Sequence record: JX560968
Length of the DNA stretch: 64,000 bases
Strand: one strand, 5' to 3'
DNA from: Escherichia phage EC6
Part shown: positions 9,749-9,774 of the stretch, piece after piece
Layout of the letters: every line of letters begins with the position of its first letter
How positions within the stretch are numbered: the stretch's first letter is position 1
Notes under the pieces: generated by a model
Database searches by the model: none
What the model saw: the letters and a program-made list of their open reading frames with translations, nothing else
Told to the model about the DNA's origin: nothing
Position numbers and translations under genes: made by a program

Positions 9749-9774
9749 TTGTTGACAAAGTACTTGACAAGGTG
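9749..9774. promoter_or_regulatory. conserved tandem TTGACA element (GTTGACAAnGnACTTGACAAGGTGT), copy 1
   Basis: Lies in the divergent intergenic region; a near-identical ~26-nt copy occurs at 51237-51262 in the other divergent region. Confidence 0.5.

What the first reader, a model, noticed from the sequence alone, without database searches (positions are those of the whole stretch)
9749..9774. Conserved ~26-nt tandem TTGACA element shared by both divergent intergenic regions
GTTGACAAAGTACTTGACAAGGTGT at 9749-9774 and GTTGACAATGCACTTGACAAGGTGT at 51237-51262 are nearly identical and both sit where minus- and plus-strand blocks diverge. Neither TTGACA has a well-spaced -10 hexamer, so they may be regulator- or sigma-factor-binding sites rather than simple sigma70 promoters.
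Basis: seen in the sequence. Interest (0 to 1): 0.45.

Follow-up and report, generated by a model that had tools for sequence, protein, structure and literature searches.

The report
Tandem -35 host-type phage promoters
The repeated 25-base element is the core of two rightward host-RNA-polymerase promoters of a Felix O1-like phage, ordinary except that a second perfect TTGACA is strictly conserved inside the spacer, a layout also kept by an unrelated group of T4-like phages and not yet explained.

Summary
The element is real. The window is a Felixounavirus.

Both copies point rightward at the two places where transcription diverges. Each reads as a sigma70-type promoter: an A-tract like an UP element, TTGACA, then a weak TAnnnT at 17 bp (TAGGCT) or 18 bp (TGtTAATCT).

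In diverged relatives both TTGACA hexamers never change, while the 6 bases between them vary freely. More distant Ounavirinae have a single TTGACA-N17-TAGGCT or TACATT at the orthologous site. So hexamer 1 is the -35, and hexamer 2 is a derived feature under selection.

A freshwater T4-like clade keeps the same tandem layout in 60 of 72 loci sampled without reference to the motif.

The Felix O1 paper predicted the first promoter (P41) but missed the second and the tandem layout. Its RT-PCR table puts genes behind these promoters at a 25-min peak, against 5 min for genes behind canonical promoters.

What hexamer 2 does is unresolved. No transcription start has been mapped.

The parts
9741..9751 (+). 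UP-element-like A-tract TAAAAAAGTTG directly upstream of the -35 of the rightward promoter in intergenic region 1 (Felix O1 'P41')
   Evidence: The same AAAAAAGTT(G/C)TTGACA is found at the tRNA promoters 11879 and 13273 and at 44939(-), and at the early promoters of RB49-like phage kaaroe.
9752..9757 (+). Hexamer 1, TTGACA: the -35 element
   Evidence: It lies 17 bp from TAGGCT. It is invariant in 13 distinct site-1 variants. It aligns with the only hexamer present in the Wc4 and Rouille orthologues of site 2.
9758..9763 (+). 6-nt linker AAGTAC, free to vary
   Evidence: Eight different linkers occur among relatives: AAGTAC, AAGGAC, AAGCAC, AGCCTC, AATGAC, TTCCTC, TTCTTC, AGGGGA.
9764..9769 (+). 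Hexamer 2, TTGACA, inside the spacer (about -23 to -18). Conserved; function unresolved
   Evidence: 0 of 6 positions vary, against 9 of the 11 other spacer positions (P = 0.0023). It has no conserved -10 of its own.
9773..9780 (+). TG followed by the weak -10 TAGGCT (9775-9780). Predicted start about 9787-9788
   Evidence: Relatives carry TAGGCT, TAGCCT, TAAGTT or TAGTGT, always TAnnnT. TG precedes it in all except Felix O1. The start site is inferred, not mapped.
9781..9901 (+). AT-rich (28% GC) structured leader. Contains ACTTAAAAGGTT, the hairpin AGATATC-N6-GATATCT (9834-9853), and an outer stem CCTCTAAAAAGGC/GCCTTTTAAGAGG
   Evidence: MFE -28.4 kcal/mol, z = -3.2; GC content; nearly invariant in relatives.
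9902..11811 (+). Operon served by this promoter: gene 41 (DUF5681; frameshifted in this window), gene 42 (471-aa Ro/TROVE-like DUF2828 protein, 10354-11769), and terminator t42 (11783-11811)
   Evidence: Terminator t42 is listed in PMC3185647.
9698..9726 (-). Back-to-back leftward promoter TTGACT-N17-TACCAT, serving the minus-strand block (first gene ATG at 9652)
   Evidence: This stretch is highly conserved in relatives.
51229..51239 (+). UP-element-like A-tract TAAAAAGCAAG of the rightward promoter in intergenic region 2
   Evidence: AAAAAGCAAG is invariant in 23 site-2 variants.
51240..51245 (+). Hexamer 1, TTGACA: the -35 element
   Evidence: It lies 18 bp from TAATCT and is invariant.
51246..51251 (+). 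6-nt linker ATGCAC; its middle 4 positions are free to vary
   Evidence: ATGCAC, ATGTAC, ATACAC, ATGCGC, ATTCAC, AATCAC, AAGCAC, AATAAC and AACCAC all occur.
51252..51257 (+). Hexamer 2, TTGACA, inside the spacer. Conserved; function unresolved
   Evidence: 0 of 6 positions vary in 23 variants.
51261..51269 (+). Extended -10: TGt followed by TAATCT (51264-51269). Predicted start about 51276-51277
   Evidence: Relatives carry TGtTAATCT, TGgTAGTCT or TGtTAGTCT. The start site is inferred.
51270..51436 (+). AT-rich (24% GC) structured leader with several CTTAAAAG-type octamers, followed by gene 97 (51437-51859)
   Evidence: (z = -2.3).
51210..51238 (-). Back-to-back leftward promoter TTGCTT-N17-TAATGT for the DNA polymerase gene (probable start ATG at 51179 with a GGAG ribosome-binding site)
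   Evidence: TAATGT or TAGGGT and the -35 are retained in relatives.

Best explanation
Each copy is the core of a rightward promoter read by the host's sigma70 RNA polymerase.

Anatomy. An A-tract at about -45 to -39 acts like a proximal UP element. The upstream TTGACA is the -35. Seventeen or 18 bp further on lies a deliberately weak -10 (TAGGCT; TGtTAATCT). Transcription should start near 9787 and 51276 and run through long, AT-rich, structured leaders. One leader precedes genes 41-42 (a DUF5681 protein and a Ro-like RNA-binding protein, ending at terminator t42). The other precedes gene 97 onward, the nucleotide-kinase and primase-helicase block. Each promoter stands back-to-back with a leftward sigma70-type promoter.

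Hexamer 2. The second TTGACA is not a second promoter. It is a selected extra site inside the spacer, one helical turn (12 bp) downstream of the -35. It is exactly the housekeeping-sigma -35 consensus, and it is kept both here and in an unrelated T4-like clade that presumably infects different hosts. The most economical partner is therefore sigma region 4 itself. Sigma could touch it as a second docking register or after the polymerase has moved about 12 bp at promoter escape, which would tune recruitment or escape at a promoter with a very tight -35/UP and a weak -10.

Status of each step.
- Shown: the sequence, the spacing and the conservation pattern.
- Inferred: sigma70 usage and the start sites.
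- Speculative: the partner and role of hexamer 2.

My sub-estimates: sigma70 promoter with hexamer 1 as the -35, about 0.85. Hexamer 2 is functional, about 0.85. Its partner is sigma region 4 or RNA polymerase, about 0.4.
For: - Exact element, two copies, none expected by chance.
- The architecture UP + TTGACA + N17/18 + TAnnnT, with TG, is verified by coordinates.
- Relatives were sampled through flanking proteins, not through the motif. All 27 Felixouna/Mooglevirus-like DNA-polymerase loci that retain this intergenic region have the tandem hexamers (the one exception, L027, is discussed in the full report). So do 24 of 25 Ro-like-protein loci; in the 25th, L114, the contig ends inside gene 41, before the intergenic region.
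- Across 13 and 23 distinct variants both hexamers, the TG and T/A/T of the -10 are fixed, while the linker and the -10 middle bases vary.
- Distant Ounavirinae have a single hexamer at the orthologous site: Pectobacterium phage Wc4 TTGACA-N17-TAGGCT and Erwinia phage Rouille TTGACA-N17-TACATT.
- The upstream half matches the early promoters of RB49-like phage kaaroe, aaaaaagttgTTGACA-N17-(T/C)AnnAT, and other promoters in this window at 11879, 13273 and 44939.
- The Felix O1 paper predicted P41 at this TTGACA, as TTGACA-N15-TATAGG (PMC3185647).
- A tandem -35 is independently conserved in a freshwater T4-like clade. Of 72 distinct gp55-upstream regions sampled by protein homology, 60 have two perfect TTGACA 11-13 bp apart, with hexamer 1 at 17-18 bp from TAnnnT.
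Against: - No transcription start or RNA polymerase footprint exists for either site, and I found no transcriptome of any Felixounavirus.
- Both -10s match the consensus at only 3 of 6 positions, and the standard scan does not call them.
- At site 1 the TG sits at -14/-13, one base off the canonical extended -10 position.
- ORFs 41, 42 and 97-99 peak at 25 min, not at 5 min like genes behind canonical promoters. This fits a regulated or gene-dosage-dependent promoter better than a plain strong early one.
- Nothing tested here shows that sigma region 4 touches hexamer 2. In the open complex that stretch of spacer is not a known base-specific sigma contact (my own knowledge).
- Outside the two conserved clades, tandem hexamers at offsets of 10-13 bp are about as common as chance TTGACA in real promoter spacers could give.
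Confidence: 0.6

Rival explanations
1. Hexamer 2, or the pair of hexamers as a 12-bp direct repeat, is the operator of a phage-encoded regulator. That protein would either occlude the -35 to shut the promoter off, or help a promoter with a weak -10. This would make the two divergent regions the control points of a delayed-early or middle class.
For: - The hexamer spacing is rigid at 6 bp at both sites, while the distance to the -10 differs (5 versus 6 bp). This suggests the pair is read as one unit.
- Only the two promoters with the weakest -10s in the window carry hexamer 2.
- ORFs 41, 42 and 96-99 peak at 25 min, whereas ORFs 45-49 and 13-22, behind canonical TTGACA-N17-TATAGT or TAAATT promoters, peak at 5 min (PMC3185647 Table 3).
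- The authors state that temporal control in Felix O1 is unknown.
Against: - The repeated unit is exactly the sigma70 -35 consensus, and an unrelated T4-like clade keeps the same tandem unit. A lineage-specific regulator would have to have converged on TTGACA twice.
- No DNA-binding domain was found in the first genes on either side of the two regions.
- The RT-PCR was end-point and semi-quantitative.
Confidence: 0.25
2. The promoters are transcription-primed replication origins. A strong promoter followed by an AT-rich unwinding region, next to the T7-like polymerase and primase-helicase module, would work like the T7 primary origin or T4 oriF/oriG. The tandem hexamers would be part of an origin-specific promoter design. 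This is compatible with the main explanation rather than exclusive of it.
For: - Both promoters are followed by 120-165 nt of non-coding DNA at 24-28% GC, against 39% for the window.
- Both lie at local turning points of cumulative GC skew; site 1 is the window-wide minimum.
- Site 2 abuts the DNA polymerase gene.
- The T4-like tandem promoter is antisense to both neighbouring genes, has no obvious gene to serve, and is followed by AT-rich sequence.
Against: - GC skew here simply follows gene orientation, so it does not discriminate.
- The leaders end in normal ribosome-binding sites and genes.
- No iterons or initiator-binding sites were found, and no replication data exist.
Confidence: 0.1
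3. There are two overlapping promoters. Hexamer 2 is the -35 of a second promoter that starts about 12 nt further downstream.
For: At site 1, TTGACA#2 is followed at 15 bp by AATACT (4 of 6 matches, with A at position 2 and T at position 6; 9785-9790). In Mooglevirus-like relatives it is followed at 16 bp by AACACT (read).
Against: - Site 2 has nothing resembling a -10 at 15-18 bp from hexamer 2 (CGAAGT, GAAGTG, AAGTGG, AGTGGG).
- A 15-bp spacer is poor.
- In the T4-like clade the motif downstream of the -10 does not shift with the hexamer offset.
Confidence: 0.07
4. Hexamer 2 has no function. The two intergenic regions are paralogous or homogenised by gene conversion, and the second TTGACA is carried along.
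For: The two intergenic regions are alignable over more than 200 nt, so common descent or copying of the whole module is plausible.
Against: - Gene conversion would homogenise the linker too, yet within single genomes the linkers and flanks differ while the hexamers do not (for example L119 TTCCTC versus L017 AATCAC).
- The hexamer shows 0 of 12 variable positions against 15 of 23 in the rest of the two spacers.
- The same layout is independently maintained in the T4-like clade.
Confidence: 0.05
5. The element is read on the minus strand as a direct-repeat site for a response regulator, like a Pho box (TGTCAA-N6-TGTCAA), driving the leftward operons.
For: On the minus strand both window copies have TTGTCA-N10-TAnnnT (TAACTT at site 1, TATAAT at site 2). 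This resembles the phoA layout as I recall it (read).
Against: - The repeat period is 12 bp, not 11.
- The minus-strand -10 is lost in relatives (TGAAAC, TGAAGA, TCAAAA).
- Both intergenic regions have separate, conserved leftward -35/-10 promoters.
Confidence: 0.03

Closest known systems
Sigma70 -35/-10 promoters with an UP element, as in coliphage early promoters (RB49-type early promoters; Felix O1 'P41' predicted by Whichard et al. 2010)
   Same: Consensus TTGACA, a 17-18 bp spacer, TAnnnT, a TG, and an A-tract at about -45 to -39. The upstream half is letter-for-letter the same as kaaroe early promoters. P41 was predicted at this very TTGACA.
   Different: A second perfect TTGACA is fixed inside the spacer. 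The -10 is unusually weak (3 of 6). The Felix O1 paper used a 15-bp spacer (TATAGG) and reported no homologous sequence in the 96-97 intergenic region, although Felix O1 has it.
Lambda CII / P22 C1-dependent promoters (PRE, PI, PaQ): TTGC-N6-TTGC direct repeats straddling the -35
   Same: A short direct repeat overlapping the -35 region and spacer of a promoter with a weak core element.
   Different: The repeat here is TTGACA with a 12-bp period, not TTGC with a 10-bp period. The -35 here is perfect rather than absent. No CII-like ORF was detected. The phage is virulent.
Sigma70-dependent promoter-proximal pausing and the use of -35-like elements in early elongation (lambda PR' and Q loading); recalled from my own knowledge
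   Same: It involves a second -35-like hexamer near a promoter that sigma region 4 can engage after the polymerase has moved.
   Different: That mechanism needs a -10-like element in the initially transcribed region. None is shared by the two sites: TACTTA at site 1 and AGTGGG at site 2. No Q-like gene was identified.
T4 middle promoters (MotA box at -30 plus AsiA sigma appropriation)
   Same: A phage promoter class that peaks after the immediate-early class and has an extra conserved element between -35 and -10.
   Different: There is no MotA box ((a/t)(a/t)(a/t)TGCTT(t/c)A). The -35 is intact. No AsiA-like ORF was found. The Felix O1 authors likewise found no polymerase-modifying genes.
Tandem -35 promoter upstream of gp55, in antisense orientation, in freshwater T4-like phages
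   Same: TTGACA-N5/6-TTGACA-N5/6-TAnnnT, with both hexamers conserved and the linker free. One subgroup matches site 1 over 35 nt: AAAAAAGTTGTTGACAAAGnnCTTGACAAGGTGTA.
   Different: The -10s are near consensus (TATAGT, TAAAGT). The hexamer offset is 11 or 12 bp. There is one copy per genome. It points against both neighbouring genes.

Membership tests
Sigma70 (housekeeping) -35/-10 promoter | -35 hexamer close to TTGACA | tested here: met
   6 of 6 at 9752-9757 and 51240-51245. Invariant in all relatives.
Sigma70 (housekeeping) -35/-10 promoter | Spacer of 17 +/- 1 bp to a -10 hexamer that keeps A at position 2 and T at position 6 | tested here: met
   N17 TAGGCT and N18 TAATCT. TAnnnT is conserved. 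Single-hexamer orthologues have N17 TAGGCT and N17 TACATT.
Sigma70 (housekeeping) -35/-10 promoter | -10 hexamer with at least 4 of 6 matches to TATAAT (the usual scan criterion) | tested here: not met
   3 of 6 at both sites. Neither was listed by the consensus scan.
Sigma70 (housekeeping) -35/-10 promoter | Auxiliary elements: an A/T-rich UP element and an extended -10 TG | tested here: met
   AAAAAAG at about -45 to -39 at both sites. TGt is at -15 to -13 at site 2. At site 1 the TG is at -14/-13, one base off.
Sigma70 (housekeeping) -35/-10 promoter | Transcription initiation by the sigma70 holoenzyme 5-9 nt downstream of the -10 | not testable with these tools
   No start-site or transcriptome data were found for any Felixounavirus. 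The only expression data are RT-PCR timing.
Lambda CII / P22 C1 activator-dependent promoter | TTGC-N6-TTGC repeats (10-bp period) flanking a poor -35, plus a CII/C1 gene | tested here: not met
   The repeat is TTGACA with a 12-bp period and the -35 is perfect. phmmer with lambda CII found nothing better than E about 1 (weak test).
T4-type middle promoter | MotA box centred at -30 replacing the -35, plus AsiA and MotA genes | tested here: not met
   No TGCTT box is present and the -35 is intact. No AsiA-like ORF was found.
Pho box / OmpR-family direct-repeat site (minus strand) | 7-bp direct repeats with an 11-bp period, about 10 bp upstream of a conserved -10 | tested here: not met
   The period is 12 bp. 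The minus-strand -10 is not conserved in relatives.
Sigma70-dependent promoter-proximal pause module (lambda PR' type) | -10-like element in the initially transcribed region, at the same offset as the second -35-like element | tested here: not met
   12 bp downstream of the -10s lie TACTTA (site 1) and AGTGGG (site 2), so there is no shared -10-like hexamer.
Phage-encoded RNA polymerase promoter (T7-like contiguous ~20-nt promoter) | Many near-identical copies per genome, plus a phage RNA polymerase gene | tested here: not met
   Exactly two copies per Felixounavirus contig. The authors report no phage RNA polymerase.

The most novel reading that the evidence does not exclude
The tandem -35 (a second TTGACA one helical turn downstream of the true -35) is a distinct, selected promoter architecture used by unrelated virulent phages: Ounavirinae and a large freshwater T4-like clade. 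It would give host-polymerase promoters a special kinetic or temporal behaviour. One possibility is that sigma region 4 steps onto hexamer 2 at promoter escape. Another is that an unknown TTGACA-reading factor sets delayed-early or middle timing, or marks transcription-primed origins.
Probability: 0.2. Interest if true: 0.6.

Novelty: new variant of a known kind. Interest (0 to 1): 0.4.

Why it matters
Temporal control in Felix O1-like phages is explicitly unexplained. They encode no RNA polymerase, no known sigma factor and no known polymerase modifier. These phages are widely used for Salmonella typing and biocontrol.

The work pins the two divergent control regions to a specific, testable promoter design: a perfect -35 with an UP element, a weak -10, and a conserved second -35 hexamer. 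That gives concrete mutations to make.

If hexamer 2 proves to tune promoter escape or timing through sigma region 4, it would add a new element to the bacterial promoter toolkit, and a compact part for synthetic promoters. If not, the finding is simply the previously unannotated second copy of a predicted early promoter.

Tried and rejected
- Minus-strand reading (Pho-box-like TGTCAA-N6-TGTCAA-N10-TAnnnT). Rejected: the period is 12 bp and the minus-strand -10 is lost in relatives.
- T4-late-like TATAAATA at 9781-9788. Rejected: it is not conserved (TTCTAAAT, AATAAAAC) and is wrongly spaced from either hexamer.
- Hexamer 2 as the -35 of a second promoter. Only site 1 has a candidate (N15 AATACT). 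Rejected as a shared mechanism.
- Sigma-dependent pause module. There is no shared -10-like hexamer at +1 to +6.
- Known RNA families. Rfam at gathering threshold found only tRNAs in the window.
- Regulator candidates.
- Literature. The exact string CTTGACAAGGTG appears in no phage paper. Phrase searches for tandem or second -35 elements gave nothing relevant. I found no Felixounavirus transcriptome or start-site study. Two of those searches were poorly constrained and wasted.
- A universal offset rule for a second TTGACA. IMG/VR scans with hexamer 1 fixed at 17 bp from TG-TAnnnT gave 78 hits at N4, at least 120 at N5, about 150 at N6 and 17 at N7. After collapsing to lineages, only the T4-like clade and Ounavirinae stand clearly above what chance TTGACA in real spacers could give. 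I therefore do not claim a general class.
- Several IMG/VR hits to the first pattern are coding sequence (for example VDKALDKV) and were discarded.
- GC skew as an origin test. Uninformative, because it follows gene orientation.
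Full report
WHAT THE WINDOW IS. The two intergenic regions and their flanks match about 250 phage records at 80-99% identity. Almost all are Felixounavirus or Mooglevirus (Ounavirinae), that is, Felix O1-like myoviruses of Escherichia, Salmonella, Shigella and Citrobacter. The gene blocks are: minus strand about 2527-9652, plus strand 9902-41154, minus strand 41190-51179, and plus strand from 51437. This matches the four 'transcriptons' described for Felix O1: genes 40-24, 41-79, 96-80 and 97-131/1-23 (PMC3185647). The finding's two sites are the 40/41 and 96/97 intergenic regions.

THE OBSERVATION. GTTGACAAAGTACTTGACAAGGTGT is at 9751-9775 and GTTGACAATGCACTTGACAAGGTGT is at 51239-51263, both on the + strand. 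They are the only two matches in the window, with none expected in 100 shuffles. TTGACA on its own is not enriched in the window (74 observed, 67 expected), so the signal lies in the arrangement. The similarity extends beyond the element. Upstream are TAAAAAAGTTG and TAAAAAGCAAG. About 25 nt downstream both have ACTTAAAAGGTT, and later ACAGATA.

ANATOMY. Counting from the upstream hexamer:
- Site 1 is TAAAAAAGTTG-TTGACA-AAGTAC-TTGACA-AGGTG-TAGGCT. The spacer is 17 bp.
- Site 2 is TAAAAAGCAAG-TTGACA-ATGCAC-TTGACA-AGGTGT-TAATCT. The spacer is 18 bp, and TGt forms a canonical extended -10.

They do keep the three positions that matter most: T-12, A-11 and T-7.

The A-tract sits where a proximal UP subsite would be. 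The same AAAAAAGTT(G/C)TTGACA heads other promoters in the window: the tRNA-cluster promoters at 11879 (N17, TGt, TAAAGT) and 13273 (N17, TATAGT), and a promoter at 44939(-). It also heads the early promoters of the RB49-like coliphage kaaroe, which read aaaaaagttgTTGACA-N17-(T/C)AnnAT.

Each rightward promoter stands back-to-back with a leftward one. These are TTGACT-N17-TACCAT (9726 to 9698) and TTGCTT-N17-TAATGT (51238 to 51210).

COMPARATIVE EVIDENCE, WITHOUT ASCERTAINMENT BIAS. I fetched relatives through the flanking proteins, not through the motif. This gave 28 loci via the DNA polymerase and 25 via the Ro-like protein. I added Felix O1 itself, Mordin, ESh22 and KMM2.

Every Felixouna/Mooglevirus-like locus that includes the intergenic region has both hexamers intact. 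Two loci do not show the element. In L027 (60% polymerase identity, like the Kolesnikviruses) the stretch read upstream of the polymerase gene has no tandem hexamer. In L114 the contig ends inside gene 41, before the intergenic region.

Across 13 distinct site-1 and 23 distinct site-2 variants the pattern is as follows.
- The 12 hexamer positions at each site never change.
- The 6-nt linker takes 8 and 9 different forms.
- The bases after hexamer 2 read A-N-N-T-G at site 1.
- The -10 varies only in its middle: TAGGCT, TAGCCT, TAAGTT, TAGTGT at site 1, and TAATCT, TAGTCT at site 2.

Within the spacers, hexamer 2 has 0 of 6 variable positions at each site. The remaining positions vary at 9 of 11 (site 1) and 6 of 12 (site 2). 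The hypergeometric P values are 0.0023 and 0.05, with a product of about 1e-4. These are descriptive only, because the sequences are related.

More distant Ounavirinae settle which hexamer is the -35. At the orthologue of site 2, Pectobacterium phage Wc4 has TTGACA-cacttatttttacatgc-TAGGCT, and Erwinia phage Rouille has TTGACA-tggctaaaaattagctg-TACATT. Each has a single hexamer at N17. So hexamer 1 with a weak TAnnnT is the ancestral promoter. Hexamer 2 arose by substitution within a spacer of unchanged length, and has since been held fixed at two promoters. An exact IMG/VR scan shows exactly two copies per Felixounavirus contig. Some Mooglevirus-like contigs have a third tandem promoter with a 13-bp offset, in the early region to the left of this window.

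WHAT WAS ALREADY KNOWN. Whichard et al. (2010) predicted 'P41' as TTGACA(N15)TATAGG at 21515-21541, which is hexamer 1 of site 1. [quoted passage not shown] They also wrote that Felix O1 encodes no RNA polymerase or known polymerase modifier, and that its temporal regulation is not understood. Felix O1 does carry site 2, identical to the window. The second copy and the tandem layout were therefore overlooked. No record I inspected annotates a promoter at either site. The exact string occurs in no phage paper in the library.

TIMING. In the Felix O1 RT-PCR table, ORFs 41, 42, 96, 97, 98 and 99 are maximal at 25 min. ORFs 45, 46, 48 and 49 lie behind the canonical P45 (TTGACA-N17-TATAGT, window 13273). 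ORFs 13, 16 and 20-22 lie in the early region, where the paper lists a repeated TTGACA-N17-TAAATT sequence. Both of those groups are maximal at 5 min. ORF96 was nevertheless detectable within 5 min. This is end-point RT-PCR, so it is weak evidence. It does fit promoters that bind polymerase tightly but open slowly, or that depend on a factor or on template copy number.

THE SAME LAYOUT ELSEWHERE. IMG/VR scans for TTGACA-Nx-TTGACA, with hexamer 1 held at 17 bp from TG-TAnnnT, gave:
- 78 hits at x = 4;
- at least 120 at x = 5;
- about 150 at x = 6;
- 17 at x = 7.

The x = 5 and x = 6 hits are dominated by one very diverse clade of freshwater T4-like phages. Its gp55 is about 50% identical to that of cyanomyoviruses. 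In this clade the tandem promoter sits in the short gap between a 138-aa gene and gp55-gp47-gp46, and points against both neighbouring genes.

I then sampled that clade by gp55 homology in metagenomes, independently of the motif. Of 72 distinct upstream regions, 60 have two perfect TTGACA 11-13 bp apart (35 at 12 bp, 22 at 11 bp). Hexamer 1 is 17-18 bp from a TAnnnT, usually TATAGT or TAAAGT. Five more have one-mismatch hexamers. Cyanophage S-PM2 has a single TTGACA-N17-TACAAT at the same place.

One subgroup shares 35 nt with Felix site 1: AAAAAAGTTGTTGACAAAGnnCTTGACAAGGTGTA. I cannot explain this beyond convergence on an optimal UP/-35, or transfer between phages.

Outside these two clades, tandem hexamers occur in roughly 7-30 lineages per offset. 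That is within what chance TTGACA in genuine promoter spacers might give, so I do not claim a universal class.

MECHANISM. Shown: the sequence, spacing, copy number and conservation. Inferred with good confidence (about 0.85): these are rightward sigma70 promoters with hexamer 1 as the -35, starting near 9787 and 51276.
- The site-1 transcript runs through a 115-nt structured leader (z = -3.2) into genes 41-42 and ends at terminator t42 (11783-11811).
- The site-2 transcript runs through a 160-nt leader (z = -2.3) into gene 97 onward.

The role of hexamer 2 is speculative. It is exactly the housekeeping -35 consensus and is conserved in two unrelated phage groups, so the simplest partner is sigma region 4. 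The site lies one helical turn downstream of the -35. Sigma region 4 could use it as an alternative docking register. It could also reach it once the polymerase has advanced about 12 bp at escape, easing release from a very tight UP/-35 contact or prolonging sigma retention.

The main rival is a phage regulator that reads the 12-bp direct repeat. That would explain the later peak of the downstream genes and the link with weak -10s. It would, however, require convergence on TTGACA in two clades, and no candidate protein was found. A transcription-primed origin role remains possible and is not exclusive, given the AT-rich leaders at 24-28% GC.

VERDICT. The element is best read as a pair of host-polymerase promoters of a slightly unusual, conserved design. 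It is a new variant of a known kind, of moderate interest, and directly testable by start-site mapping and hexamer-2 mutagenesis.

Noticed in passing
L187 4619-4647 (+); also L457-L536, L047, L058, L137-L360: A very diverse freshwater T4-like clade keeps a tandem -35 promoter (TTGACA-N5/6-TTGACA-N5/6-TATAGT or TAAAGT) in the gap between a 138-aa gene and gp55. It points antisense to both genes. A conserved RTGT(C/T)C motif and AT-rich sequence follow it, with no obvious gene to serve. It could drive a small or antisense RNA, or act as an origin promoter.
   Followed up: partly
L047 11978-12016; L061, L062, L072, L074, L093: One T4-like subgroup shares 35 nt with Felix site 1: AAAAAAGTTGTTGACAAAGnnCTTGACAAGGTGTA. 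It is unresolved whether this is convergence on an optimal UP/-35 or transfer between phages.
   Followed up: partly
L361 and L365 (Mooglevirus-like contigs), left of the region homologous to window 500-1400: A third tandem promoter with a 13-bp offset: TTGACAataccccTTGACAagtgTAACTT. It has no counterpart inside this window.
   Followed up: partly
window 9902-10272 and 51861-52671: Gene 41 (DUF5681; 372 nt in Felix O1 and UAB_Phi87) is split here into 9902-9997 and 10042-10272. Gene 98 ('minor tail protein'; 801 nt in Felix O1) is split into 51861-52124 and 52066-52671. These are apparent single-base frameshifts, either real or sequencing errors.
   Followed up: partly
window 864-2526: A 1.6-kb stretch with no ORF of 60 aa or more. 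It holds tandem 11-nt repeats GCTTGTTAGTA (1386-1429, with degenerate copies out to 2111) and many CTTAAAAG, CTATAAAG and CTGTAAAG octamers, some forming GGGGC...GCCCC hairpins. Its function is unknown.
   Followed up: no
window 9781-9901 and 51270-51436: Both leaders are AT-rich, fold better than shuffled sequence, and carry several CTTAAAAG-type octamers. ACTTAAAAGG with at most 1 mismatch occurs 25 times in the window against 8.6 expected. The last copy overlaps the ribosome-binding site (CTTAAAAGAGG or CTTATAAGAGG). The site-1 leader is more conserved than the promoter spacer.
   Followed up: partly
window 11869-11908 and 13261-13301: The tRNA-cluster promoters AAAAAAGTT(C/G)TTGACA-N17-TAAAGT and -TATAGT lie just after terminator t42. 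So the 25 tRNA genes are not driven by the tandem promoter unless transcription reads through t42.
   Followed up: partly
window 51177-51209: The DNA polymerase ORF is listed from the ATG at 51209. The ATG at 51179 has a GGAG ribosome-binding site, and homology starts there, so it is the probable start.
   Followed up: partly
L378 (S-PM2) 1030-1200, minus strand: Cultured cyanophage S-PM2 has, at the locus syntenic with the T4-like tandem promoter, a single antisense TTGACA-N17-TACAAT. It is preceded by an inverted TGTCAA (aTGTCAAggggcTTGACAa).
   Followed up: no
phage database records GU169904 (Staphylococcus phage SA1), MG065664 (Campylobacter phage A132), OK283618 (Listeria phage LPML1): Records named for hosts outside the Enterobacteriaceae contain Felixounavirus DNA or a Felix-like polymerase. 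SA1 and A132 match at about 98% identity; LPML1 matches at 58%. The near-identical ones probably reflect contamination or mis-assignment in the deposited records.
   Followed up: no
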